Of a DNA stretch of 64,000 bases, positions 18,386 to 64,000 are shown piece after piece. The stretch covers positions 33,982,224 through 34,046,223 of the forward strand of contig NC_090405.1 in assembly GCF_036365525.1 (NCBI RefSeq), in the 5' to 3' direction. The notes under the pieces are model-generated. The model saw only the letters and a list, made by a program, of their open reading frames with translations, was not told the DNA's origin and ran no database searches. How positions within the stretch are numbered: position 1 is the stretch's first letter; each line of letters starts with the position of its first letter. Source of the stretch: Heterodontus francisci. Lineage: Eukaryota. Both the position numbers and the translations under genes were made by a program.

Positions 18386-19164
18386 TATCAAAAAGCTGGT
18401 GAGCTTCCTAAATCCCACTTTGCGATTTAGGGCTAATTGAAGGCAGTTGCTTCATTGATGGATCAAATGATGTCTTAAATCAGAAGGACAAAGTTTTGTT
18501 GGCTTATAACCATTATCTGATCTCCAAGAAGATATGCTTTCAGTGCCTTTTCTAACCTTCTTAGAATTATTTTGACCCTCAATCACTCTCATGGGTTAGT
18601 CACAGCTCCCTAAATTTTCAAGAGATTCAATTCTTGTTTTGAGGTCCAGCTAAGCTTTCAGTAGAGTGTCTGAGCAGAAAAGTAAAGTGCAAACTATGTT
18701 TGGCAAGTGCTTTTGACTATTGGACATGTGCCTCTAAAAGATCCAGTATTCGAAAGCAGTCGAGCTTTTTGTTTGGCTGTGTTTTAAGTTTAAGATACTA
18801 GGTAAGTATTTTACAAAAGATGACAAGTGCATAAGTAACAGTCACGTTCTATATTTATAGTAGACAACCTTCCACCTAACTCGAGGGGATAAAATAAAGA
18901 GCTTGGATAACTCTATATAAAAATAACTTGTAAACTGTTCCCTTAACTTGAGTTTTTTTTTAACCACCGTCAGAGACTAATTAAATTATTTTGTGGAAAT
19001 TCATCATGATTTTTTCTCACTGGGGTTTCAAAGTGTTGATTCTTTGCAAACTGACTCAAACAGACTCATCATTTTAAACACCTGATTAGCTCATCCATCA
19101 ATCTTTTATACAAGTGACGACAAGCCAGGTTTATGCAATTTATCCTCAATTTAACCCTTTAATT

Positions 19165-28526: not shown

Positions 28527-29424
28527 GTATATAGCAGGTGCTGAAGTTAGACAATGCTCGGTGATTGATCTTTGTATTCAGTAACCGATTCGAATGCTGT
28601 GGTTTTACAGACATAGAGTTATACAGCACAGAAACAGGCCCTTTGGCCCATCGTGTCTGTGCCAGCCATTAAGCACCTATCTATTCTAATCCCATTTTCC
28701 AGCACCTGTCCGATAGCCTTGTATGCTATGGTGTTTCAAGTGCTCATCTAAATACTTCCCTTTAAATAGTATTAGTTGTGGGGCAGGGGGGTTTGGGGGG
28801 GGCGAGGGGCATGGTCCTTCCTGGTGCTGAACGAGTGTTCTGTGCTCCAAAATAGTGGCACTGGCATCAAATCAGTGTTACGTTGCCTACCAAATGCATG
28901 GCTGGTAGTAGGGTGGGGGAGGAGAAGGCCCTGCTTCTCTTGTCTTTGCACTTTGTAGAAGGTGGTGATCTCCTAGGCCTGTATCTGTACCACCATGAAC
29001 CAGCTGCTGGGAGGCATGAGGCATCTCTTGTTACCCTCCCTCTCTCAGTGCAGAAGCTCCTCACTCTTGCCCAATGCTCTCCTTTCTTTCCACACCCCTA
29101 ACAACCCGCCCTCTATTGATTTGGCCTGTAGATTGGGGCTCCGGCATGCCGTTGCAGCAGTCTTTGCTTTTTGTTGATCACGATATGTGCATGACCTTCC
29201 ACCCACATAAATACCTCTGCAATGCACACATTTCTGTTTTGATTGGGTTGCCGTTTTGCATTTAAAATATTCAGATTGGTTTGTCAAGTAATTGTGTAGC
29301 AGATTATGGTTTGATAGCTTCAAATTATATGTAAAGTAGATGAGTAACTTAGTTTAGAATATTATAGTCCTGGAGCTTTGCCATAATCACAACTTGCTCG
29401 AATAAAGACTTTTTTTAATCCACT

Positions 29425-30689: not shown

Positions 30690-30750
30690 GTGAGTTACTG
30701 TCTATAGTGAATGATACTGTGATTTCATTATGTTTATTTGTTTTTGGAAT

Positions 30751-31068
30751 TTTTTTTTTTAGAGATACAGCACTGAAATAGGCCCTTTGGCCCACCGAGT
30801 CTGTGCCGGCCATCAACCACCCATTTATACTAATCCCACATTAATTCCATATCCCTACCACCTACCTATACTAGGGGCAATTTATAATGGCCAATTTACC
30901 TATCAACCTGCAAGTCTTTGGCATGTGGGAGGAAACCGGAGCACCCGGAGGAAACCCAAGCAGACACAGGGAGAACTTGCAAACTCCACACAGGCGGTAT
31001 CCAGAATTGAACCCGGGTCGCTGGAGCTGTGAGGCTGCGGTGCTAACCACTGCGCCACTGTGCCGCCC
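30751..31068 (-). mobile_element. HE1-type V-SINE
   Basis: tRNA head ggcacagtggcgcagtggttagc, V-domain ccgggtgctccggtttcctcccac, CR1-like tail. Confidence 0.9.
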
Positions 31069-31074
31069 ACTGTG

Positions 31075-32240: not shown

Positions 32241-34454
32241 AAACACCAAGGTAGTTCGCACTATGACGTTTGGAATATTTCAATCCTAACGGGACCTCGG
32301 TGGGGGGGGGGGTGGGGTGTGGTGAAGAATGGTGCCTGAGTGAGAAACCTGATATAGAAGTGTCTCTTAAGAGAGCAGAATGATTGCTAAATGAGCTGTG
32401 ACATGCAAACTGGCACAGTCCTCTGAGGAGATGCTTTCTCCTCATGCACCAGATGGATCTTTCCTCTCAGTAAACAGGATGAGATGGTTGCAGGATATGC
32501 CAATTGGAACAAATAAAATACAGGTGACTGCTGGAGGTCTTGGAACCAATCTGGCCCCTTCCTCCAAACCCCCCCCTCCCCCCCCCCCCCCCCCCCAAAC
32601 GCTTCTCTGTCTGCCTCTCATTCCGCCTCTTACTCTAAAACTAGGTAAGAACAGCAATCTAGAACCTCCTGCCATACCTTTCCTCTTTTTAGTTTGACTA
32701 GCCTGGGACTATAGTTGCTGGAGTTGTCCTAATCTCTACTCTCAATTCTGTTGCAATGTGTTTTTACGAGCATTTTGTAAACCACTTATACTGTGAGGTA
32801 ATTGTATATGGTTCCAAGGCTAATTTTATAAAGTTGGCATAAAATTCAATCTCCTGTGCACAAAGCAAGATTTAGGACACAGATAAAATGTTGCATAAGT
32901 AGAACCACAAAATCAAACTTGTAGAGGTGAGTTATGATCTGAATCCTGACTTGCCCAGTGTTCTAAATGCCGTTGCTTATTCCACACATAATGAAGCTTG
33001 AATTTATTGGCCGTTATGGAGGTTCTTTTACTAGTGTTACTGTCTGGTTCTGCTGTCTCAGGAGTTGAGACATTTTATATATAACAATGATTTGACGAAA
33101 TCTCAATGGATTGTTATCATGCAGTCTCGTGAACTTTGTTCCATTGATTGATTAGTGCATACTAAATGTGCTGCTGATGTGGCAATAATACGAGCTGTAA
33201 TATGACAACTGGCCTCCCGCTCTATGCAGCATGTCCAAGTGCTAGGCAAAGAACCCATCCATGGGCTCTCTGCTGGAGGTGCTATTTCTGGGTGCTGGAG
33301 AGTAGCCTGCAGAGCTTGAGTTACATGGGAGTTTGTTAGCCTATCTCCCAGCCTGGGACAGCGTGTGGGAGAGTAGAGGTTTCAGTGGTTGGTTGTTACT
33401 GCTCTACTATCAGTGCTATTTGTAATTCCCTTTGGAAAGTTGTTTCAGATTAAAGGAGCTCTCAAGGATATGTTCATTACTTCCCCTCAGGTGTATTTCT
33501 CTGAATTAGATAGGGGAGTTTATTTATCAAATGCTCACCATAAAATGGCAGATAGTATGGATTGTTGGACTACCAGCCGGCACCAGGTCGTTGGTCTCTG
33601 CTGTCAGGGAGAAAATGCATTGCGTGGAGGCTCAGCTGCCTGGCTAAAGAGGCGGAGAGAAAATGGGCATTTGCTTTGGTGCATTCCATCTCGGGTGAAG
33701 CCGCGGCAGCAGATCAGCCTTCTGGCGACCTGGCTACTGATGTGAGGGGCAAGAAGATCCAGTTGAGAAGAAAGATGTAAAGGCGAGTTTAGCTCTAGCT
33801 TAAAGTTAGCTGATCTCCCAAGTAGAGCTGTCACCTTTGCTGTGCTTCCACCAGCAGGGCATAATAATCAGCTCTTGGTATTCATCGCTGTTGGTCATCC
33901 TCAGTGGAGTGCTGAAGAGCATATTGGATACTAAATGTAGATTATTGAATGTCATATTCGTGTACTGAACAGAAGTAGCTCCTTAAGATAGCTCAGTGGA
34001 TAAATGAAGTGCATTGTATCTTCCTAAACCATACAGCGAAGGTTTAATTTCTAGTCAATGCTCAGTTGATTTTGAAAAGGGAAGCCATTGAAGCAGCAAA
34101 ATTGGCCTCCGCATCTTGTATTTAGAGAGAGGGAATGCTCGTGATTACTGTCTAGTGTATGTATATCGGTGTCAGGAGAGTACAGGATCAAGCTTGGGTG
34201 TTAAACCCCCTAGAGTCAAATAGCTTTCTGAGCGAATATTTACTGAACCAGGTTGTAGAAATTTGAAGAATGGTTTCTGACGTTTCATGTGGATGTGATT
34301 TGTGGATCGCGGATGTTAAGATACTATTACTGGTGCAGCTGCTATTTTGTCTTTTCTTGAAATTAACTGTCCTTCAGTTTTTGATTCGAAAGTGTTTCCC
34401 TGTTAATGTGGGTGATTTGTAAGCTTTGCCTGACTGTCTGTGCCCGTGTTGCAG

Positions 34455-37959: not shown

Positions 37960-38745
37960 TCAAAAGAAAGACTTGCAATTATGTCGTGCCTTTTACAGCC
38001 ACGGGACATCCCAAATAGCTTTACAGCCAAATAAAGGCTTTTAAAGTAGTAATGGTAACATAGGAAATGCAGCCAATATTGTGCGCAGCAAAGTCCCACA
38101 AACAGCAATGAGATAATGGCCAGATAGACTATTTTAGTAATGTTAGTTGAGGGATAAATATTGGCCACACTGGGGAGCAGTTGTTTTAATTGTTTTGTTT
38201 TAGAGATACAGCACTGAAACAGGCCCTTCGGCCCACCGAGTCTGTGCCGACCATCAACCACCCATTTATACTAATCCCATAATCCTACCGCATCCCCACC
38301 TGTCCCTATATTTCCCTACCACCCACCTTTACTAGGGGCAATTTATAATGGCCAATTTACATACCATCCTGCAAGTCTTTTGGCTGTGGGAGGAAACCGG
38401 AGCACCCGGAGAAAACCCACGCAGACACAGGGAGAACTTGCAAACTCCACACAGGCAGTACCCAGAATTGAACCCGGGTCGCTGGAGCTGTGAGGCTGCG
38501 GTGCTAACCAATGCGCCACTGTGCCGCCCTGCTGCTTTTGAAATAGTGTGATAGGATCTTTTTACATTCACCTGAGGACAGAATGCCTGGTTTTTAATGT
38601 CACATCTGAATGATGGCATCCTTGACAGTGCAGGATTGCCCTGAAGCCTCAGCCTAGATTTTTGTGCTTAAGTCTTTGGAGAGGGACTGAACCCACATCT
38701 TCTGACTCGAAGACAAAAGTGCTACCCGCTGAGATACAGCTGCTT
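37960..38745 (-). mobile_element. Deu-domain SINE interrupted by an HE1 SINE
   Basis: SINE halves at about 37960-38185 and 38530-38745 flank the HE1 copy. Confidence 0.7.
38197..38529 (-). mobile_element. HE1-type V-SINE
   Basis: Near-identical to 30751-31068. Confidence 0.9.
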
Positions 38746-41700: not shown

Positions 41701-42439
41701 TCCAGAAGCTGTAACAGAGAATCATAGAATTGAATCATAAAATGATCCAGCATTGAAGGAGGCCATTCCGCCTGTGCTAGCTCTTTGAAAGAGCAATCCA
41801 ATTAGTCCCAGTCCCCTGCTGTTTCCCCAAAGCCCAGCAAAATTTTCCCCTTCAGGTATTTATCCAACTCTCATTTGAAAGTTATTATTGAAGTTGCTTC
41901 TGTCACCTTTGCAGGCAGTGCATTCCAGATCATCAGAACTCTGTCTAAATATATTTTTCTCATGCCACTTCTGATTTCTTCTTTTAATCACCTGAAATCT
42001 ATACCCTCTGGTTACTGACTGTCCTGCCACTGGAAACATTACAAGAAAAATCTTTAGTTGTACTAGTAAATGATTCTGGCTGGATCTTAAAGGTTCTTCA
42101 GCAGCTTAGATTTGCCAGTGATGGGGATGAGTATCTCTGCTAACTGTGTAGGGCTTCTAGGTGAGATATGTTGGTCAGTCTTGCCTCTAAGTTCTGATGA
42201 CACAGGCCCACACCTTGTTTGAAATTGATATTGTGTGGAGCTGAGATGCCACAAGGTCGACTTGGGTGAAAAGTGCTAAAGATCGTAGGAGGGTCTTATT
42301 TGAGATGAAAAGAATGTTGCTGTATGGAGTAGAAGAAGCTTTGCTCTGTATCTGGCTACGGCATTTCTGACTAAGAGTGTTTGAGACCGACCCTTAGTTC
42401 TGAACTCCCCAGCCAGGGAAAACCACCACCAAGCCCCAA

Positions 42440-52003: not shown

Positions 52004-52538
52004 GTAAGCAGCTCACTGCCCGCGGCTTTTGTGTCCACCATTCGGGGTCGGGTTTTTATTTTATACCCGAGTCAGATTTTACCTGTGAGATTCTAGGAGA
52101 TTCCTTAATATGGGGAGGAATTTCTCAGCAGGGAAAATGCCATCTAAAGTTTGTAATGTATATTTTTATTGGATCATATGCAGGATTTCTCTTGATTACA
52201 GGTTATTTCTTGAACTTTTAAATTTCAGATTTAATTTTATTTCCAATAGTAAACAATGTAAAGTCGAACAATATTTCTGTGTACTTTCAATTCGGGCTGA
52301 ATTTAATATTTACAAAAGGATTCTTGACTCTATTGGCGAGCCCTCCGAGGTGGAAAGGAGTTGCTATCGAGATCATACCTGCCGCAACCTGTCAAACCTC
52401 TTCTTGCACCTTTCAGCTTGAAAATGTTTTGCTGGAACTGCGAGCTGAAAACGGCGCAGTGAGGGCAAAGGGGCTTTGGGCAAATTCGGAACAAACAGTT
52501 TGAGAGAGGAGAGGGTCAAAGACTAGTATTTTAAATAA

Positions 52539-52888
52539 GGGTGGCACAGTGGCGCAGCGGTTAGCACCGCAGCCTCACAGCTCCAGGGACCTGGGTTCGA
52601 TTCCGGGTACTGTCTGTGTGGAGTTTGCAAGTTCTCCCTGTGTCTGCGTGGGTTTTCTCCGGGTGCCTCCGGTTTCCTCCCACAAGCCAAAAGACTTGCA
52701 GGTTGATAGGTAAATTGGCCATTATAAATTGTCACTAGTATAGGTAGGTGGTAGGGAAATATAGGGACAGGTGGGGATGTTTGGTAGGAATATGGGATTA
52801 GTGTAGGATTAGTATAAATGGGTGGTTGATGTTCGGCACAGACTCGGTGGGCCGAAGGGCCTGTTTCAGTGCTGTATCTCTAAAAAAA
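52539..52888 (+). mobile_element. HE1-type V-SINE with TSD
   Basis: Full head, V-domain and tail; taaataaggg duplicated at 52532-52541 and 52889-52898. Confidence 0.92.
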
Positions 52889-55025
52889 TAAATAAGGGCA
52901 ATTATGAGGGCATGAAAGCAGAGCTAGCTAAAGTGAACTGGCAAATTTGGTTAAGGGATAGGTCAATAGAGATGAAGCGGCAGATGTTTAAGTGGATATT
53001 TCAGAATACACAATAGATACATTCCAATGAGAAAGCAAAATTCCAAGTGGAGGACCCACCATCCGAAGTTAGTTAAAGATAGTATCAAAATTAAAGAAAA
53101 CACATATAATTGCACAAAGATGGGTGGCAGGTCAGAAGTTTGGACAGAATATAAAAAACAGCAGAGAATGACTAAAAGATTAATAAGGAAGGAAAGATTA
53201 AAGTACAAGAGAAAGCTAGCTAGAAATATAAAATCAGATAGTAAGAGTTTCTACATGTATTTAAAAAAGAGTTAACAAAGTGCAGATCGGTCCTATAGAA
53301 AGTGAGTCTGGGAATTAATAATGGAATATAAGGAGATGGCATATGAATTGAACAGGTATTTTGCATCAGTCTTCACTATAGAGGATAGAATTAACATTCC
53401 AGAAATAGCTATAGATCAAGAAATGGAAGGGAGGAACTCAAGAAAATTACAATCACCTGGGAAGTAGTACTGAGAAGTTATTGGAGTTGCAGGCTGACAA
53501 GTTCTGGGTCTTAATAGAAGTGACTAGTGAGATAGCTGATGCGTTGATTTTAATTTTCCAAAAATTCCCTAGATTCTGGGAAGATTCCGTTAGATTGTAA
53601 AATAGCCGATGTAACTCCTTTATTCAAAAAGGGAGACAGAAAGCAGGAAACTACAGGCCAGTTAGCATAACATCTGTCATAGGGAAAATGTTAGAAGCTA
53701 TTATTAAAGACATTGTAGCAGGGCACTTAGAAAAATTCAGTGTAATCAGGCAGAGTCAACATGGTTTTGTGAAAGGGAAATCATGTTTAAATGTCTTAAC
53801 AATTTATTGGATTTCTTTGAAGAAGTATCATGTGCTGTGGATAAAGGGGAACTGGCGGACGTACTGTACTTAGATTTCCAGAAGGCATTTGATAAGGTGC
53901 CACGTCAAAGGTTATTGTGGAAAATAAAAGCTCACGGTGTAGGGTAACATATTGGCATGGACCGAAGATTGCCTAACTAATAGGAAACAGACAGTAGGCA
54001 TAAATGGGTCGTTTTCTGGTTGGCAAGATGTAACAAGTGTTGTGCCACAGGGTTCAGTGCTGGGGCACTGAAATTTTACAATTTATACAAATGACTTGGA
54101 TGAAGGGACCAAAGGTATTTTTACTAAATTTGCTGATGACACAAAGATAGGTAGGGAAGTAAGTTGTGAAGGGGACATAAGAAGGTGACAAAGGGATATA
54201 GACAGGTTCAGTGAATTAAACATCTGGCAAATGGAGTATAATGTGGGAAAATGTGAAATTGTCCATTTTGGCAGGAAGAATAGAAAAGAAGCATATTATC
54301 TAAATGGTGAGAGATTGCAGAGCTCTGAGATGCAGATTGATTTGGGTGTCTTAGCGCATGAATTACAAAAGGTTGGTATGCAAGTACAGCAAGTAATTAG
54401 GAAAGCTAATAGAATGTTATCATTTATTGCGAGGGGAATTGAATACAAAAGTGGGGAGATTATGCTTCAGCTGTCCAGAGCATTGGTGAGACCACTTCTG
54501 GAGTACTATGTACAGTATTAGTTTCCTTCTTTAAGGAAGGATGCAAATGCGTTGGAAGCAGTTCAGAGAAGGTTTACTAGAGTAATACCTGGAATGGGCA
54601 GGTTGTCCTAGGAGGAAAGATTGGACAGGCAAGTCTTGTATCCACTGGAGTTTAGAAGAGTAAGAGGTGACTTGATTGAAACATACAAGATCCTGAGGGG
54701 TCTTGACAGGGTGGATGTGGAAAGGATGTTTCCTTTTGTAGGAGAATCTAGAACTAGGGGTCACATTTAAAAATAAGGGGTCGCCCATTTAAGACAGAGA
54801 TGAGGCGAAATTATTTCTCTCAGAGGGTCGTGAGTCTTTGGAACTCTCTTCCTCAAAAGGCAGCGGAAGCAGACTCTTTGAATATTTTTAAGGCTGAAGA
54901 AGATAGATTCTTGTTATGCAAGGGGGTGAAAGTTTATCGGTGGTAGGCAGGAATGTGAAGTTGAGGTTACAATCAGATCAGCCATGATCTTGAATGACGG
55001 AGAAGGCTCGAGGGATCGAATGGCC

Positions 55026-55640
55026 TGTTGTGCCTAACACGCACTTACTCTTAAAGAATCCACTGAATCCGATTGGTGAAAGGTATATCAATATTTTATT
55101 CACACACTGAATCATCAAGTACAAGCTCTCACTACTTGCACAGTATACTACCCGTCAAGACACGAGGTGATCAGTCTCGGACTTGCGGCTGCTCTTGTTC
55201 TCTGAGCCCCTGGCTTAGGGTATCTTCTCGAGTGTTCTTCCCCGGGGTTCTTGTACCTTCCTCAGTTTCAGTCAGGGGTTAAATCTTGTTTCTAAGACTC
55301 TCCCCTCTTACTTACTCATAGGGGTCTGGTATACTGACAATGATATTTCCTTATTTGGCTCAGTGAGAACCTGTTCAAAACTTCACAGTTTCCCATTGTC
55401 TATTATGAGTTTTATCATATCTGGTGTCCATGACGACTCCTAGTTTCTGGGATCCTCCTCAATACCTTTTCTATCATCATATCTACAACTCCTTGGCCAT
55501 CTGTATGCTGTGGCCTCTTTTACCCATCCTCCCTTCAACACACTGTTCATTGTTGTGTTACTGGCCCCTTTGTTTTAATTAAGTTCTTATGTGTTTTTGC
55601 TATATGTGTTTTTACTGTATATGTTTTTACTGGGTATATA
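55026..55640 (-). mobile_element. Probable solo LTR
   Basis: 615-bp insert splitting the CR1 tail; GGCC TSD (55022-55025, 55641-55644); + strand termini TG...TA; AATAAA on the - strand near 55095-55100. Confidence 0.65.
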
Positions 55641-56205
55641 GGCCTACTTCTCCTAATTCAGATGTTCCCTCTCCCCATAGCTCTGCACACCAGACATGCA
55701 CCAGCCTTCCTTGCATCCAGTATTACTCTGGGTCAAATACTGTATGGCTATCATTTACATGGCTTTTAAATATCCTTGTCCATATTAGGATGCATGTCAC
55801 CCATTACTCCTGGAGGAAATTTCCATGAGTGGCAGGGTCTGTACAGAGTCGGTACAAATGGCTCCCACCTGCTTTTCTGTCCCTGCCTACTGCATTACAT
55901 AGGGAAGTCAGCATAATACCAGGACAGGATCTAGCTCATAGACAGTGAAAATGTTTTAAAATCCACCTTTTCCATTTGCCTACTTTGCATTACTTCCTCC
56001 TCAGACCAAGTGCCATGTCACAGCTGAGAAAGCAACCTGCTTCCGCTTTCTGCAAATGGGTGTACTTAACAGGCTCCAACAGGGAAATAGAAACTCCTCC
56101 CTATTTTTCTCCTTCCTAAAATGGTGCAACTGAGGTCAGTACCAGGTACCTCGACAAATTGTTATTGCAAATTAGATACTACCGATCATATTCGTGACCT
56201 AAAGG

Positions 56206-58644
56206 AGGAGTGGGGTATGGGCCAGACTTGCACCACATACAGCAACAACGTGAGCGCCTCGCACCTGATGGCCAGGTTCTTACCCACAATGGAGAAAGAT
56301 CGCTGCTCCCACATGCTCAGTTTATGGTGTACCCTGGCTACTCGCTCCTTCCAGGTTTTGGTGCACAACCCGGCCCTTCCGAACCATATCGCCAGCATCT
56401 TCAGGTAGTCTGACCTGACGGTGAAGGGGACAAAGGAACAGTCAGCCCCGTTCCCAAAGAACATCGCCTCGCTCTTGCCGTGGTTAACGTTGGCTCCCAA
56501 GGCCAGTTCAAACTGGTCACAGATGCTGATCAATCTGCAAACCGACAACAGATCCGAGCAGAAGATAGCGACGTCATCCATGTACAGGGAGGTTTTAACC
56601 TGAGTGCCTCCGCTGCCTGGGATTGTCACCCCTCTTATGCCCGCATCCTTCCTATAAACTCAGCAAAGGGTTCAATACAGCAAACAAACAAGACAGGGGA
56701 GAGAGGGCAGCCCTGTCTGACTCCAGATTGGATCGGGAAACTTTCTGATTCCCAACCATTGATTGAGACTGCACTACTGATGTTTGTGTAGAGCAGTTTG
56801 ATCCAATTGCAGATTCCCTCCCCAAACCCCATTTTGGAGAGCATGTCCATCATGTAGGTGTGCGATATCCTGCCAAAAGCCTTCTCCTGGTCCAAGCTGA
56901 TGAGGCAGGTGTCCACCCTCTCATCCCGTACATAGGCGATCGTATCTCTGAGTAGCGCAAGACTATCAGAGATCTTCCTGCCGGGCACAGTGCAGGTCTG
57001 ATCAGGGTGAATCACCAACACCAGAGCAGACTTGACTTGACTGGCGATGACTTTGGACAGAATCTTGTAGTCAACATTAAGCAGTGAGATGGGCCGCCAA
57101 TTTCTGATTTCTGCCCTCTCCCCCTTCCGCTTGTAGATGAGGTGATGATGCCTTTCCTCATGGATTCTGACATGCTGCCGGCCAGGAGCATACTCTCGTA
57201 TACTTCCAGCAGGTCTCGGCCGACCCAGTCCCACAGGGCCGAATACAACTCAACCGGTAAGACATCGCTTCCGGGAGTTTTACTTGTCTCGAAGGACCTG
57301 ACGGCGTTTGTCAGCTCATCCAGAGTTAGCGGCTTGTCCAGTCTCTCCCTCATGGTGTCATCTAAGACCTCTGTGATAGATGACAGGAAGGATTGGGAGG
57401 CTCTGCTGTCTGTGGGCTTCACGTCGTACAGCCCAGCATAGAATGATTTGTTGATCCTTAGTATGTCGGACTGCGAAGACGTTACCGAGCCATCCTCTTC
57501 CTTCAGGCTGCTGATCAGAGCTCTCTCTGTGTACCTTTTGGAAGAAGTAACATGAGCACGTCACATCCTGCTCAACGGAGCGGACTCTGGACCGGAAGAT
57601 GATCTTGGAGGTCTCCGTGGCAAAGAGCGAGGTCTGCTGGCTCTTCACCTCCTTGACCTCGACCCCCATCGACTGCAGCCGGAGCAGATTTTGCATAATT
57701 TTCTGGAGTTGGGATATTTCCCTCTGTCTCTCTCTCGCCCTCTGAATACCTTTGAAGATAAAGAACCTCTTGATGTTCTCCTTGATTGTCTCCCACCAGT
57801 GAACTGGAGACTCAAAGAGGGGTTTCACGGTTCTCCAACCTGTGTAATCCCTTTTGAGTTCCTCAACGTTCTCTGGGGTTAGCATTGTAGCATTGAGCTT
57901 CCATGTCCCCCTGTCAACCCGCTGGTCATCCGGTAAGTGACAGTCGGCCAGTAAGAGGCAGTGGTTGGAGAAGGACACCGGCTTGACGTCGGTGGATCTG
58001 ACCGTGACAGCACGGGACACAAACAGGAAGTCAATCCGGGAACGGGCAGACCCGTCCGATCTTGACCATGTGTATCTGCGCTGCGCTCCGTCTGCAGGTT
58101 TGCTGAAGACATCGTGCAGTTTGGCATCTTTTGCTGTTTCCATTAGGAATCTGGACGTAGCATCCAGTTTGCTGTCGTCTCTGCCGGATCGTCCAGCTGC
58201 ATCAATGATGCAGTTGAAGTCACTGCCTAGAATGACCGGCCTGGACGTCGCCAGCAGCAGTGGGAGCTGCTGGAAGACGGTCAGCCGCTCGCTGCATTGA
58301 ACCGGGGCATACATGTTGATCAACCGGAGTGGAGCATTGTTGTACATTACATCTGCTACGAGGAGGCGACCGCCCACCACCTCCTTAACTTGGGAGATGG
58401 TGAAGTTACCTCCCCGCAGCAGAATACCCAGGCCGGAGGAACGGGAATCATTACCCCTTGACCAGATCGATGGCCCGTGGGACCACCATCACAACCATTG
58501 CTTGTAGGTGCTGAGATGTGGTATTCCACACTCCTGCAGCAACAGTAGGTCGGCTTTGATCTTGGCGAGGTAATCCAAGGTTGAAACACATCGTGTAGTG
58601 GATTTAACGCTACTCATGTTAATTGAAGCAATCTTTATACCCAT
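56206..58644 (-). mobile_element. Tx1-clade retrotransposon copy C, ORF2 (APE + RT), frameshifted, 3' end missing
   Basis: MGIKIASIN, LLLQECG, ILGSDFNCI, SRIDFLFVS, NWRPISLLNVDYKILSK, GVRQGCPLSP, LYMDDV; homology to copy A stops at 56206. Confidence 0.93.
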
Positions 58645-58649
58645 TTTTA

Positions 58650-60345
58650 AGTTAGTTGTTGCTTCGCACACCATTTGTCCTTGCTAGTCCCAGTCCTTCG
58701 GTATCTTTCCCCTTGAAAACATCACTGCTCCCAGCTTCCCGGAGCTGGAGTGCGCCCGACGCTTCTCCGGTGTCCCGGAGCTGGGATGTGCTGGGCATGT
58801 CGCTAGGTCCAACGCTTTGGGTTTGGGGTGCGGGGCCCATCACAGCTTCCAATGCCCCAGAGCTGGGGGGGCTTTATCTTCCAGCTCCTTTGAGTTCTGC
58901 CGCTTCTTTTGGGGGTGCCGTTGTTCCGGCCCTTCCTCGTCCAGTGAGGAGGAGCTGCTGTAGTCTGTCTCAGACGGTAGCCTCCTCTTTCCAATGGTTT
59001 GGGTGGTGGCCTGTCCTTTTTTGGAGGTTTTTTCTTTGTGGTTTTCCTTTGTACCACCTGCCACTGACCAGTTTATCCATCTGCTGCCTCCTCCTCCATT
59101 GATTCTGTCTGTAAAGGAGGGATTTCCGGGTGCAGGGTAGGTGTTGGGTCACTGGTTTCAGCTGCCTCCCCTTTCTTCTCCTTCTTAGGTAGACTTTCCT
59201 AGCTGCGGGGAGGGTTGCTTGTCTCCTTCCCAGTACCAGACGTGTTCACCGTTCCTTCTCCCAGCCTTTCCTTAGACCTTGCCGCCTCAGCATAACTGAG
59301 GCAGGTTTTGTAGAGGTGGCCTGCCTCACCGCACAAGTTGCAGCACTTACTCTGCTTACAGTCCCTGGTCTGGCCTTCCTTCTTGCAAACAACTGTGCTG
59401 CAGTTAGCTGCCACGTGACTAGATTTGCCACAGGTGCGACAAACTCTGGGTTGCCCTGCATAGGCCAAGAAGCCTTGATTTCCCCTGATAGTGAAGCTGG
59501 AGGGAGGATGGATGATTGCTCTGTTGGCTTCGACCTTCAGGGTCACCTTGACCTGCTGCTTGCTGATCCAAATCCCAAAGGGGTCCTTGACATCAGTGCT
59601 GCTGCCGGCCACCTCGACGTACCTGGTGAGGAAAGTGAGTATATCCACGACAGGAACAGGGGGGTTATAGAGGTGAATTGTCACCACCTAGATTCATAGA
59701 GAGATACAGCACTGAAACAGGCCCTTCAGCCCACCAAGTCTGTGCCGACCAACAACCACCCATTTATACTAATCCTACATTAATCCTATATTCCCTACCA
59801 CATCCCCACCATTCTCCGACCACCTACCTACACTAGGGGCAATTTACAATGGCCAATTTACCTATCAACCTGCCAATCTTTGGCTGTGGGAGGAAACCGG
59901 AGCACCCGGCAGAAACCCATGCGGTCACAGGGAGAACTTGCAAACTCCACACAGGCAGTACCCAGAACTGAACCCGGGTCGCTGGAGCTGTGAGGCTGCA
60001 GTGCTAAACACTGCGCCACTGTGCCACCCACCCGGTCACATTGCGATGGCAGTGTGAAGAGTGGCTCCACTGTGAGGATCGACAGTGGCACCTGGTTTGC
60101 CTTCTCCTTGAACACCTTCAGGAACTTGATGCATCCCGCCACATTCTTGAAAGTCACGTCGAAATATCCACTGCTGGGGAAGTCCTGCAGGCAGAAGATG
60201 TCCGCAGCTTGGAATCCACAACAATGAGGATTTTATTGATGAAGAAGGTACAGTCAACCGGTGCATCTCCATCCTTATCCTTCACCACCACCTGAACGGT
60301 GTTACGCACTCCCTGGCTTGAAGCTCTAGAATTGGTTACAGTCAT
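58650..60345 (-). mobile_element. Tx1 copy C, ORF1 (ZCCHC3-like, CCHC knuckles), disrupted
   Basis: ATG at 60345; IFCLQDFPSSGYFDVTF, YAGQPRVCRTCGKSSHVAANC, CNLCGEAGHLYKTC. Confidence 0.9.
59689..60027 (-). mobile_element. HE1-type V-SINE nested in Tx1 ORF1
   Basis: Splits ...PSQCDR|VVTIHLYN...; short ccacc duplication at both ends. Confidence 0.9.
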
Positions 60346-60383
60346 TTTACTCAAAACCTACCTGGAACAGGAGCAAAGGCCAC

Positions 60384-60415
60384 TGATCATGGTCTCTCCC
60401 CTGCCAGGTAAGTAT
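60384..60415 (-). ncRNA. RNU1: U1 snRNA 5' fragment (nt 1-32), not a complete gene
   Basis: ATACTTACCTGGCAGGGGAGAGACCATGATCA, 31/32 identical to the canonical vertebrate U1 5' end, starting exactly at U1 +1. Confidence 0.92.
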
Positions 60416-60432
60416 CAAGTAGCAAATGGACA

Positions 60433-60829
60433 TGTTGGGGTTGTTTTTCAGTCCATTGTGCAGTTTTACTTGGAGCTGGTGTACTTGGTCACTGCCTTTG
60501 CCCCTTCCGACACGGCGTGCTTGGCCAGCTCCCCGGGCAGCAGCAGGCGCACGGCGGTCTGGATCTCCCGGGAGCTGATGGTGCTGCGCTTGTTGTAATG
60601 GGCCAGGCGGGAAGCCTCACCCATGATGCGCTCGAAAATATCGTTCACAAATGAGTTCATGATGCTCATGGCCTTGGAGGAGATGCCGGTGTCGGGGTGA
60701 ACCTGCTTCATCACTTTGTAGATGTAGATGGAGAAACTCTCCTTCCTCGTCTTTCTCCGCTTCTTGCCGCCCTTTGCTGAAGGTTTACTCACAACTTTCT
60801 TGGCACCCTTCTTAGCAGCTGCTTTCTAC
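60433..60829 (-). pseudogene. H2B: Histone H2B pseudogene (no ATG, no 3' stem-loop)
   Basis: [53 protein letters not shown]...AVTKYTSSK*; preceded by an in-frame TAG and the Tx1 poly(A); substitutions at normally invariant sites (ESF, ERIMG, EGAK). Confidence 0.93.
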
Positions 60830-61983
60830 TTTTTTTTTTATTTCCAAAATATGCTTTATTCATAAAAATCTGTAAAAATTACATTCCCAAACAGTTTAAA
60901 CCAGCATCAAGTCAAAAAATACAAACAGTGCAAAGGTGAACAGTTTCCTTCTATACAATCATGAGTTGCCTCACAACCCTTCCATTTCATTGTCATGCCA
61001 TATACATTTTTACATTTACAGCACACAAAATTTTCCCGATACAGTTCGAGGGGTTTCCCCTGGATCCAGCTCCTCAGTTCAGCTTGGTGGGGGGACCTTA
61101 CACTGTGGTCTTTCCCCATTGAGCCTTTGCTGCGGCTGCCCCAAACTTTAGTGCGTCCCTCAGCACGTAGTCCTGGACCTTGGAATGTGCCAGTCTGCAA
61201 CATTCGGTGGTGGACAACTCTTTGCGCTGGAAGACCAGCAAGTTTCGGGCAGACCAAAGGGCATCTTTCACCGAATTTATAGTCCTCCAGCAGCAGTTGA
61301 TGTTTGTCTCGGTGTGCGTTCCTGGGAACAGCCCGTAGAGCACAGACTCCTGTGTTACAGAGCTGCTTGGGATGAACCTCGACAAAAACCACTGCATCTC
61401 TTTCCACACCTGCTTTGCAAAGACACATTCCAGGAGGAGGTGGGCGACCGTCTCTTCCCCACCACAGCCAACGCGGGGGCACTGTGCGGAGGGGGCAAGA
61501 CTTCGGGTGTGCATGAAGGATCTGACGAGAAGGGCCCTTCTCACCACCAGCCAAGCTACGTCTTGGTGTTTGTTTGAAAGTTCTGGTGATGAGGCATTCC
61601 GCCAAATGACTTTGACGGTCTGCTCGGGGAACCATCCGACAGCATCCACTGTCTCCTTTTCCCGTAGGGCCTTGAGGACATTCCGTGCAGACCACTGCCT
61701 GATGGACCGGTGGTCAAAGGTGTTTTCCCGCAGAAACTGCTCCACGAAGGATAGGTGGTACGGCACGGCCCAACTGCTTGGAGCATTCCGCGGCAATGTG
61801 GCCAAGCCCATCCTTCGCAACACCGGGGACAGATGGAACCTCAGCACGTAGTGACACTTGGAGTTTGCGTACTGGAGGTCTACACACAGCTTGATGCAGC
61901 CACACACGAAGGTGGTCATCAGGATGAGGGCCACGTTGGGTCCATTTTTCCCGCTCTTATCCAGAGATTTGAACATCGTGTCC
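60830..61983 (-). mobile_element. Tx1 copy B: 3' part of ORF2, 3' UTR and poly(A)
   Basis: Open frame DTMFKSLDK...CPRVGCGGEETVAHLLLEC...WGKTTV* (stop at 61098), AATAAA at 60860-60855, A10 at 60839-60830. Confidence 0.95.
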
Positions 61984-64000
61984 TTTTTTTTTATTTCCAA
62001 AATATACTTTATTCATAAACATCTGTAAAAATTACATTGCCAAACAGTTTCCAAACAGCACCAAAAAATACAAACATTGATCGGGAGATCAGTTTCCTTC
62101 AATACTGTCATGAGTTTCTTCCCAACCCTTCCGTTTCACAATTGTCATGTCAATTACAGTTTTACATTTACAGCAATTGAGAATATTAAGGATACAGTTC
62201 AAGGGGTTTCCCATTGATCCAGCCCCTCAGTCTAGCTTGGTGGGGGAACCTTACACTGTGGTCTTTCCCCATTGAGCCTTTGCTGCGGCTGCCCCAAACT
62301 TTAGTGCGTCCCTCAGCACGTAGTCCTGGACCTTGGAATGTGCCAGTCTGCAACATTCGGTGGTGGACAACTCTTTGCGCTGGAAGACCAGCAAGTTTCG
62401 GGCAGACAAAAGGGCGTCTTTCACCGAATTGATAGTCCTCCAGCAGCAGTTGATGTTTGTCTCGGTGTGCGTCCCTGGGAACAGCCCGTAGAGCACAGAC
62501 TCCTGTGTTACAGAGCTGCTTGGGATGAACCTTGACAAAAACCACTGCATCTCTTTCCACACCTGCTTTGCAAAGGCACATTCCAGGAGGAGGTGGGCGA
62601 CCGTCTCTTCCCCACCACAGCCAACGCGGGGGCACTGTGCGGAGGGGGCGAGACTTCGGGTGTGCATGAAGGATCTGACGGGGAGGGCCCTTCTCACCAC
62701 CAGCCAAGCTACGTCTTGGTGCTTGTTTGAAAGTTCTGGTGATGAGGCATTCCGCCAAATGACTTTGACGGTCTGCTCGGGGAACCATCCGACAGGATCC
62801 ACCGTTTCCTTTTCCCGTAGGGCCTTGAGGACATTCCGTGCAGACCACTGCCTGATGGACCGGTGGTCAAAGGTGTTTTCCCGCAGAAACTGTTCCACGA
62901 AGGATAGGTGGTACGGCACCGCCCAACTACACGGAGCGTTCCGCGGCAATGTGACCAGGCCCATCCTTCGCAACACCGGGGACAGATAGAACCTCAGCAC
63001 GTAGTGACACTTGGAGTTTGCGTACTGGGGATCTACACACAGCTTGATGCAGCCGCACACGAAGGTGGTCATCAGGGTGAGGGCCCCGTTGGGTACATTT
63101 TTCCCGCCCTTGTCCAGAGATTTGAACATCGTGTCCCTCCGGACCCGGTCCATTTTAGATCCCCAGACGAAGCGGAAAATGGCTCGGGTGACTGCCACGG
63201 CGCAGGAGTGGGGTATGGGCCAGACCTGCACCACGTAGAGCAACAACGTGAGCGCCTCGCACCTGATGACCAGGTTCTTACCCACAATGGAGAGAGATCG
63301 CTGCCCCCACATGCCCAACTTTTGTCGTACCTTGGCTACTCGCTCCTCCCATATTTTGGTGCACGCCCCGGCCCTTCCGAACCATATCCCCAGCACCTTC
63401 AGGTAATCTGACCTGACGGTGAAGGGGACAAAGGATCGGTCAGCCCAGTTGCCAAAGAACATGGCCTCGCTCTTGCCGTGGTTAACTTTGGCTCCCGAGG
63501 CCAGTTCGAACTGGTCGCAGATGCTCATCAGTCTGCGCACGGACAGCGGATCCAAGCAGAAGACGGCGACGTCATCCATGTACAGGGAGGTTTTGACCTG
63601 AGTACCTCCGCTGCCTGGGATTGTCACCCCTCTTATGCTCGCATCCTTCCTAATAGACTCAGCAAAGGGTTCAATACAGCAAAAAAACAAGACCGGGGAC
63701 AGAGGACAGCCCTGTCTGACTCCAGATTTGATCGGGAAACTTTCAGATTCCCACCCGTTGATTGAGACTGCGCTACTGATGTTTGTGTAGAGCAGTTGGA
63801 TCCAATTGCAGATTCCCTCCCCAAACCCCATTTTGGAAAGCACGTCCATCATGTAGGTGTGCGATATCCTGTCAAAAGCCTTCTCCTGGTCCAGGCTGAT
63901 GAGGCAGGTGTCCACCCTCCTGTCCCGTACGTAGGCGATCGTATCCCTGAGTAGCGCGAGACTATCAGAGATCTTCCTGCCGGGTACAGTACAGGTCTGA
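61984..64000 (-). mobile_element. Tx1 copy A: uninterrupted ORF2 (RT + C-terminal zinc finger), 3' UTR and poly(A); continues beyond the window
   Basis: Frame open from 63999 to the stop at 62251 with LDQEKAFDRISH, GVRQGCPLSP, LYMDDV; AATAAA at 62013-62008; A9 at 61992-61984. Confidence 0.96.

What the first reader, a model, noticed from the sequence alone, without database searches (positions are those of the whole stretch)
60343..60415. Tx1 retrotransposon whose 5' end is the first 32 nt of U1 snRNA
Seen: on the - strand, U1 nt 1-32 (31/32 match, starting at +1) is followed by only 38 nt and then the ORF1 ATG of Tx1 copy C. Known: some Tx1-clade families are sequence-specific (Keno targets U2 snRNA), U6-L1 chimeras form by template switching, and U1-headed SINEs exist in crocodilians. 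Inference: this is either a shark Tx1 lineage whose source copy sits in a U1 gene or has adopted a U1 head, possibly transcribed from the U1 promoter, or a one-off U1-LINE chimera. Copies A and B are not followed by U1 nt 33 onward, which argues against strict U1 targeting at this locus.
Basis: partly seen in the sequence, partly recalled or inferred. Interest (0 to 1): 0.85.

Follow-up and report, generated by a model that had tools for sequence, protein, structure and literature searches.

The report
U1-headed shark retrotransposon with hairpin leader
A broken jumping gene, probably from a shark, starts with the first 32 letters of the splicing RNA U1, and its next 38 letters are shaped to pair back with that piece, which suggests how such elements pick up splicing-RNA heads, a habit already described in crocodiles.

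Summary
Observation confirmed. Minus strand 60415-60384 is U1 nt 1-32 (31/32 to printed mammalian U1), then 38 nt, then the true ORF1 ATG. U1-headed Tx1 families are already published for crocodilians (Kojima 2015), so the kind is known.

Three additions. (1) The 38-nt leader is antisense to the head: a 24-pair hairpin (-31.6 kcal/mol, z -4.3) built around a 5'-splice-site-like motif that pairs U1 nt 3-12. (2) The head looks recurrent. Directly before ORF1, a basking-shark gene model translates through U2 nt 2-34 and two U1 pieces, an unnamed relative carries U2 nt 2-34, and a horn-shark model keeps the leader. This evidence is from proteins only. (3) Upstream lies a tailless histone H2B fragment and two younger copies, not a U1 gene, so U1 targeting is unsupported here.

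Best reading: a shark lineage of snRNA-headed Tx1-type elements. The leader may bind U1 snRNA and guide the polymerase onto it (inferred, untested). An inherited head, a source copy in a U1 gene, or a one-off chimera remain possible. No shark DNA could be searched.

The parts
60384..60415 (-). U1 snRNA nt 1-32 (head); nt 22 is G, not the T of mammalian U1
   Evidence: Rfam U1 model 1-32, E 2.8e-5; 31/32 by eye against printed U1
60346..60383 (-). 38-nt leader, antisense to the head. Its first bases (GTGG) may be a relic of the U1 stem-loop I 3' strand after loss of loop nt 33-37
   Evidence: Fold and pair table; weak Rfam alignment, E 0.096, places them as that strand; leader register kept in P0010
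60356..60365 (-). CCAGGTAGGT, a 5'-splice-site-like motif pairing U1 nt 3-12 (9 Watson-Crick pairs, 1 G-U)
   Evidence: 3 such 10-mers on both strands of the window: this one, the head's own complement, and one at 18798
60358..60390 (-). Upstream ORF of 10 codons from the U1-derived ATG (U1 nt 26-28), in frame with ORF1, stopping 12 nt before the ORF1 ATG
   Evidence: Frame from 60468
60416..60435 (-). 20-nt linker. 60421-60416 continue the hairpin in register; 60431-60422 are complementary to the H2B 3' UTR at about 60461-60451. Probably junction filler made by snap-back synthesis
   Evidence: p about 0.004-0.03, modest
60436..60830 (-). Histone H2B fragment: no start codon or first few codons, several amino-acid changes, ends where the 3' stem-loop would begin
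   Evidence: Pfam Histone E 3.7e-23; H2B chains match from their residue 6-14; stem-loop motif 0 matches in the window
58652..60345 (-). ORF1 of copy C, broken by frameshifts, stops and a SINE; family has two RNA-binding domains and CCHC knuckles
59700..60031 (-). SINE of about 330 bp inside ORF1 (HE1-like is a recalled label)
   Evidence: Three further near-full copies and one partial copy in the window, 80-87% identical
56206..58644 (-). ORF2 of copy C: endonuclease and RT, broken, ending abruptly at about 56206 with no 3' UTR or poly(A)
   Evidence: Pfam Exo_endo_phos and RVT_1; similarity to copy A stops at 56206
60831..61983 (-). Copy B: 5'-truncated, ORF2 end open, 3' UTR, poly(A) joined directly to the H2B fragment
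61984..64000 (-). Copy A: youngest, ORF2 open for 582 aa to the window edge, poly(A) joined directly to copy B

Best explanation
[quoted passage not shown] SHOWN: U1 1-32 sits 38 nt before ORF1; the leader is complementary to U1 nt 3-27; relatives carry snRNA pieces or the same leader at the same place (seen in protein translations). INFERRED: the leader's splice-site-like motif binds U1 snRNA on the element RNA. In that antiparallel duplex U1 nt 27-32, in the loop of stem-loop I, lies next to the first base of the leader. When reverse transcriptase reaches the end of the element RNA it jumps to the tethered U1 and copies it to nt 1. In a headed element the head folds back on the leader, which would mask the splice-site-binding end of U1. 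About 0.8 for 'recurrent snRNA-headed lineage', about 0.4 for the tether-guided jump as the way heads are added.
For: Hairpin: -31.6 kcal/mol, z -4.30, 0 of 200 shuffles as stable; 24 pairs between head and leader, kept (mean pair probability 0.92-0.97 for nt 3-12) when 73-300 nt are folded. With the linker, only the hairpin's own window reaches -42.8 among 621 GC-matched 106-nt windows. 12 of 18,276 window 38-mers do as well as the leader when joined to the head. The one difference from mammalian U1 (G22) forms a G-C pair. Recurrence: P0002 (Cetorhinus maximus) has CRGDTM (U1 nt 11-28) and VLPRQGRD (U1 nt 1-24, with G22) just before its ORF1 core, each the only such fit among 69,559 and 69,239 positions at its register. 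P0084 and P0002 carry SLLGLLAKIKC / SLLGLLANIKC there, the hand translation of U2 nt 2-34 as printed; next best 5/11 among 160 proteins. P0010 (Heterodontus francisci) fits the leader in register, 7 of 69,079 positions. [quoted passage not shown] Truncations of retrocopied small RNAs fall in loops.
Against: No second copy was seen as DNA: both genome-contig scans were empty and the cluster look-up could not be made. Of 38 relatives with more than 5 aa before ORF1, only 2 show snRNA peptides and 1 the leader; a search centred on the P0002 head found only P0002. Gene models can be spliced, so adjacency in P0002 and P0010 is not proven. P0002 does not fit the leader after its second U1 piece. The U1 part of P0010 is only suggestive (1,859 of 69,399, p 0.027), and the 16-aa window length was picked after seeing five lengths. 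The head is purine-rich: stretches at 33574-33623 and 42393-42439 pair with it as strongly as the leader does (-33.4 to -32.6 against -32.5). The inner stem may simply be U1's own stem-loop I. Pairing beyond U1 nt 12 would have to open stem-loop I of a mature snRNP, which favours folding in cis over capture in trans. There are no covariation data and no RNA data.
Confidence: 0.55

Rival explanations
1. Inherited head, no ongoing capture. One ancient event fixed a modified U1 nt 1-47 (loop nt 33-37 lost) at the 5' end of the master element. The hairpin is stem-loop I plus an added anti-U1 arm that works only in cis, as a structural or translation-control element.
For: GTGG follows nt 32 as U1 38-41 would after a 5-nt loss. 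G22 is shared with the proximal U1 piece of P0002 and pairs in the stem. P0010 keeps the register across head and leader. Crocodilian consensus families have fixed heads.
Against: The head is 31/32 to mammalian U1 while the 3' UTRs of A and B match at only 225 of 274 columns, so a long-inherited head would need strong selection or refreshing. P0002 stacks U2 and a second, canonical U1 piece, which points to repeated addition. The Rfam support for the relic is weak (E 0.096).
Confidence: 0.2
2. U1-targeted family. Source copies sit at nt 32/33 of U1 genes and are transcribed from the U1 promoter, as R2 is with 28S rDNA. Copy C is a dispersed daughter that carries target nt 1-32, and the leader evolved to mask that piece.
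For: The head begins exactly at +1. The related Keno family targets U2 about 37 nt from its 5' end, and the U2 pieces in P0002 and P0084 end at nt 34, near that site. Extended pairing makes most sense in a co-transcript. Copy C's 3' flank is lost, so its target is unknown.
Against: No U1 nt 33+ motif, no U2 3'-target motif above chance and no snRNA gene by Rfam in the window. H2B sequence lies about 60 bp upstream, where the core promoter would be. The younger copies A and B (CpG losses 1, 6 and 16 for A, B and C) went in upstream of the head, not at nt 32/33. The 2015 Utopia paper lists only Keno and Utopia (U2) and the DNA transposons Dada-U1 and Dada-U6 as snRNA-targeting.
Confidence: 0.15
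3. One-off chimera. A single template switch joined U1 1-32 to a full-length RNA. The leader merely holds an ordinary strong 5' splice site, and the rest of the pairing is chance.
For: snRNA-LINE chimeras are common in mammals. The adjacent tailless H2B fragment shows that this site collects cellular RNA copies; 51 such histone copies were reported in human. Only one DNA instance was seen.
Against: U1 and U2 pieces at the same place in P0002 and P0084. Pairing runs to U1 nt 27 and ends at the junction. Precedent in crocodilian Tx1.
Confidence: 0.1

Closest known systems
Crocodilian U1/U2-headed Tx1-Mar families Tx1-2_Crp, Tx1-2B_Crp, Tx1-4_AMi, Tx1-11_Crp (Kojima 2015, PMC4494074)
   Same: Autonomous Tx1-type element with a U1-derived 5' head; relatives with U2 heads; tandem insertions at one site are described for the partner SINEU-3.
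   Different: Chondrichthyan, not crocodilian. No Mariner-N4_AMi target was tested. The text read reports no anti-U1 leader or head-leader hairpin; Fig. 1B and the supplements were not visible, so head length and folding could not be compared.
SINEU-1, -2, -3 (same paper)
   Same: Repeated, stacked 5' additions of U1 and U2 pieces, as in P0002; how they are transcribed is left open there.
   Different: SINEUs are short and non-coding; copy C has ORF1 and ORF2.
Keno (Tx1 clade, U2-targeting) and Utopia
   Same: An snRNA 5' piece directly upstream of the element. P0084, and perhaps P0002, could be Keno-like insertions.
   Different: The head here is U1. A and B are not followed by the U2 target.
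U6/L1 and other snRNA/LINE-1 chimeras; tailless retropseudogenes
   Same: Sense-oriented snRNA 5' piece fused to a LINE; break in a loop; histone copies without a tail.
   Different: Those are single events on mostly 5'-truncated L1s. Here the piece abuts a complete ORF1 leader that is complementary to it.

Membership tests
Tx1 clade non-LTR retrotransposon | Apurinic-like endonuclease plus RT in ORF2, poly(A) tail | tested here: met
   Pfam Exo_endo_phos, RVT_1, zf-RVT; best solved relative L1 ORF2p, E 2e-39; poly(A) on A and B. Shared with the L1 clade, so not diagnostic.
Tx1 clade non-LTR retrotransposon | ORF1 with RNA-binding domains and CCHC knuckles | tested here: met
   RBD_ZCCHC3 and zf-CCHC. 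That this marks Tx1 rather than mammalian-type L1 is recalled.
Tx1 clade non-LTR retrotransposon | RT phylogeny inside the Tx1 clade | not testable with these tools
   No classified reference RTs were available; the Atlas clusters are unnamed.
snRNA-headed Tx1 (Tx1-Mar type) | U1- or U2-derived 5' head | tested here: met
snRNA-headed Tx1 (Tx1-Mar type) | Head present across copies of the family | tested here: inconclusive
   Protein-level support in 2 of 38 relatives with upstream residues, leader in 1 more; no DNA
snRNA-headed Tx1 (Tx1-Mar type) | Clusters with Keno; prefers Mariner-N4_AMi | not testable with these tools
   No reference sequences; C's 3' flank and A's 5' flank are unavailable
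Keno | 3' flank is the U2 target sequence | tested here: not met
   A is followed by B and B by H2B; the U2 target motif has 1 match at 3 mismatches, 0.97 expected by chance. Not testable for C.
U1-gene-targeting element | U1 promoter upstream and U1 nt 33-164 downstream | tested here: not met
   H2B upstream; 0 matches for U1 nt 33+. Holds for this locus only.
SINEU | Short, non-coding, snRNA head and poly(A) | tested here: not met
   Copy C carries ORF1 and ORF2 over about 4.1 kb
Single snRNA/LINE chimera | Junction unique to one locus, flanked by a target-site duplication | not testable with these tools
   No genome-wide copies; both ends of C are disturbed

The most novel reading that the evidence does not exclude
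Programmed snRNA-head capture. A Tx1 lineage has evolved an antisense leader that recruits U1 snRNA and steers reverse transcriptase onto it at a set position, so that new full-length copies regularly regain a fresh U1 (or stacked U2 + U1) 5' end and then fold it away. This would be a built-in step of the life cycle, shared from sharks to crocodilians, and would explain the repeated births of SINEU heads.
Probability: 0.2. Interest if true: 0.85.

Novelty: new variant of a known kind. Interest (0 to 1): 0.58.

Why it matters
Kojima 2015 documented repeated U1/U2 additions to SINEU and Tx1 5' ends and left open how such elements are transcribed; the additions were put down to template switching, with nothing on what draws these RNAs. 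A leader that pairs with U1 up to the junction gives a concrete, mutable cause, and shark instances would widen the phenomenon from one reptile order to jawed vertebrates. If pairing steers the switch, it is a rule for which RNA a LINE polymerase jumps to. If it is only an inherited head, it is a modest addition to transposon catalogues.

Tried and rejected
Whole-window and regional Rfam scans found no complete snRNA gene; their miRNA, lncRNA and plastid hits are below gathering scores and were set aside. Genome-contig scans with the ORF1 alignment (44 pattern hits, 0 confirmed) and with ORF2 of A (13 hits, 0 confirmed) were empty, as expected for a bacterial and archaeal collection. The cluster look-up could not be made. 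The region search on the P0002 head gave only itself among 27 candidates. The Atlas search named no clade. ARAGORN found 0 tRNA genes.

The linker as the native U1 upstream flank could not be tested (no shark U1 gene); it is disfavoured because both halves have local inverted templates. The linker as a conserved extension of the hairpin: only modest support (315 of 11,634 window 20-mers and 90 of 3,000 shuffles do as well), and a rival pairing with the H2B UTR folds better. The G at -1 as a copied cap was considered (recalled mechanism) and not relied on, since it also fits CpG decay on both arms. An H2B-targeting family was considered: one paper search found nothing, and the missing stem-loop argues against an intact gene, but A's 5' flank is outside the window. 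P0071's good fit to the head lies inside the ORF1 core and is read as chance; it shows that one fit of this size can arise among 160 proteins. The last line (splice-site match count) was out of register and is not used. No fold or complex prediction was run, since neither bears on the question.

Full report
OBSERVATION. On the minus strand, 60415-60384 matches Rfam U1 model positions 1-32 (E 2.8e-5 on a 57-nt stretch). By eye it is 31/32 to the human and mouse U1 printed in 10.1101/2021.08.01.454689; nt 22, the bulged base of stem-loop I in the Rfam structure, is G instead of T. Chance is negligible (about 7e-13). Thirty-eight bases follow, then an ATG at 60345 that aligns with Met1 of the best ORF1 relative, P0001 from Heterodontus francisci (32 of 40 identical). 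Of 16 ORF1 relatives, 11 are named as sharks or rays, 1 as a newt and 4 carry no species name.

SURROUNDINGS. Read 5' to 3' on the minus strand: copy A (runs off the window, ORF2 open for 582 aa, poly(A)); copy B (5'-truncated, ORF2 end open, poly(A)); an H2B fragment (60830 to about 60436); a 20-nt linker; the U1 head; the leader; copy C, which is broken, holds a SINE in ORF1 and ends abruptly at about 56206. A and B are 856 of 886 identical in ORF2; A and C 730 of 797. CpG losses against A are 6 of 30 mismatches in B and 16 of 66 in C, with 1 in A in each comparison, so the order of age is A, B, C, and newer copies piled up on the 5' side of the older ones. No duplicated target is visible at the A/B junction. 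The H2B piece lacks its first codons and the 3' stem-loop (0 motif matches), like the 51 5'-truncated tailless histone copies reported in human (PMC5322556). The window holds no U1 nt 33+, no U2 target above chance and no snRNA gene. This locus is therefore not a U1 gene with an insertion.

THE LEADER PAIRS WITH THE HEAD. Head plus leader fold into one hairpin, -31.6 kcal/mol, z -4.30, with 0 of 200 shuffles as stable; each half alone is unremarkable (z 0.86 and -0.10). U1 nt 3-12 pair with CCAGGTAGGT (60365-60356), a 5'-splice-site-like motif; only 3 such 10-mers exist on both strands, one being the head's own complement. Pairing continues to U1 nt 27 and closes on a loop of nt 28-32, so the junction lies at the tip. 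G22 forms a G-C pair. With the linker the stem has 41 pairs (35 Watson-Crick, 6 G-U); it is the only one of 621 GC-matched windows to reach -42.8, and 5 other windows of 1,598, all richer in GC, reach it too. Controls that weaken this: 12 of 18,276 window 38-mers do as well as the leader, and two other stretches pair with the purine-rich head as strongly; the outer stem alone is matched by 170 of 42,652 24-mers; Rfam weakly reads the first leader bases as the 3' strand of U1 stem-loop I after a 5-nt loop loss (E 0.096), so the inner stem may be inherited from U1 itself. The linker is ambiguous. Its 6 bases next to +1 continue the stem in register (557 of 127,988 6-mers could) and its middle is complementary to the H2B 3' UTR (226 of 25,588). 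I read it as snap-back filler from both sides of the junction (inference).

RECURRENCE, SEEN THROUGH PROTEINS. No shark DNA could be searched (empty; not available), so I looked at gene models that run upstream of ORF1. Three searches gave 160 proteins, 38 with more than 5 aa before the inferred ORF1 start. P0002 (Cetorhinus maximus, 55% identical to the query) reads SLLGLLANIKC-CRGDTM-VLPRQGRD just before its ORF1 core. Scored by least nucleotide mismatch against the window's head, CRGDTM fits nt 11-28 (2 mismatches) and VLPRQGRD fits nt 1-24 (3 mismatches), each the only fit that good among 69,559 and 69,239 positions at that register. With the register free, 39 of 69,559 and 2 of 69,239 positions fit as well. 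RGDTM is the exact hand translation of canonical U1, whereas QGRD needs G22 as in the window. SLLGLLAKIKC is the hand translation of U2 nt 2-34 as printed: 11/11 in the unnamed P0084, 10/11 in P0002, next best 5/11. P0010 (H. francisci) has a 16-aa stretch before its ORF1 Met that is the best of 67,959 positions against head plus leader (length chosen after seeing five); the leader part carries the signal (7 of 69,079) and the U1 part is suggestive (1,859 of 69,399). Against: the other 35 of 38 show nothing (most are long native N-termini or chimeric models), one search found no further case, P0002 does not fit the leader, and gene models may be spliced.

HOW IT MOST LIKELY WORKS. Shown: anatomy, complementarity, recurrence at protein level. 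Inferred: the leader binds U1 snRNA by its splice-site-like motif. The duplex places U1 nt 27-32 beside the leader's first base, so a polymerase finishing the element RNA would land in that loop and copy U1 to nt 1, which gives the observed junction. Breaks in retrocopied small RNAs are reported to fall in loops. Once attached, the head folds on the leader and hides the part of U1 that recognises splice sites; it also adds a 10-codon upstream ORF in frame with ORF1. I put 0.8 on a recurrent snRNA-headed lineage and 0.4 on tether-guided capture. Rivals: an inherited, loop-deleted head acting in cis; a source copy in a U1 gene driven by its promoter; a one-off chimera.

WHAT IS KNOWN. Kojima 2015 (PMC4494074; parts 1-4 of 5 of the text read; figures and supplements not visible) reports U1 heads on Tx1-2_Crp, Tx1-2B_Crp and Tx1-4_AMi, a U2 head on Tx1-11_Crp, repeated additions in SINEU, no SINEU outside crocodilians, and names SINEU transcription as an open question. 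A U1-headed Tx1 is thus known. Other papers seen: PMC4640811 (passages and section 6); passages only of PMC8869645, PMC5322556, 10.1101/2025.02.02.635956 (37), PMC2064619, 10.1101/2021.08.01.454689 (50), PMC5753468, PMC6136364, 10.64898/2026.06.26.734816 (72), PMC4476161 and PMC5381603. Kojima and Fujiwara 2004 was seen only as cited by these. Nine topic searches listed no paper on shark snRNA-headed Tx1 or on an anti-U1 leader; searches showed 25 of 42 hits. The library lacks most subscription journals and Repbase, and the unseen Fig. 1B and supplements of Kojima 2015 may bear on head length and pairing. Recalled and untested: the HE1 name of the SINE, the ORF1 layout as a Tx1 mark, cap copying by reverse transcriptases.

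VERDICT. Real feature, new variant of a known kind. The U1 head is known from crocodilians; the complementary leader and the shark instances with stacked U2 and U1 pieces were not found in the searches named. The evidence rests on one DNA locus and three protein models. Metagenome and viral collections stayed unchecked and are unlikely to bear on it. Interest 0.58; 0.85 if capture is programmed (probability about 0.2).

Noticed in passing
window 60436-60830 (-): Tailless, 5'-truncated histone H2B copy wedged between copy B's poly(A) and the U1 head; either a separate trans-mobilised insertion at the same site or a further template jump of the event that made copy C.
   Followed up: partly
window 56206-64000 (-): Four pieces stacked head to tail (A, B, H2B, C) with age rising towards the 3' side and no visible duplication at A/B: suggests a preferred insertion site set by sequence beyond 64000.
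   Followed up: partly
window about 58335-58440 (-): Very stable hairpin (-53.5 kcal/mol per 106 nt, the strongest of 1,598 windows) inside the endonuclease-coding part of copy C; it draws weak Rfam miRNA hits.
   Followed up: no
window about 55040-56205 (-): Unrelated 1.2-kb stretch that replaces the 3' end of copy C; it has an AATAAA near its end and a 15-nt tandem repeat and could be a solo LTR (impression only).
   Followed up: partly
window 18798-18809: A second near-match to U1 nt 1-12 on the minus strand; on the plus strand it reads as a consensus 5' splice site, perhaps of a host exon.
   Followed up: partly
P0084 residues 54-64: Unnamed ORF1 relative (35% to P0001) with an exact translation of U2 nt 2-34 about 26 residues before its apparent ORF1 start; possibly a Keno-like insertion.
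   Followed up: partly
P0009, P0010: Horn-shark cadherin-family gene models that include ORF1 or ORF2 pieces of this element, probably annotation chimeras.
   Followed up: no
window 60416-60417 and 60352-60353: Both arms have TG where a self-complementary CG would pair; consistent with CpG decay on both arms of an older, better-paired stem (inference).
   Followed up: partly
window 28612-28692, 30749-31070, 38195-38530, 52538-52893, 59700-60031: Five copies (one partial) of the same SINE of about 330 bp, 80-90% identical.
   Followed up: no
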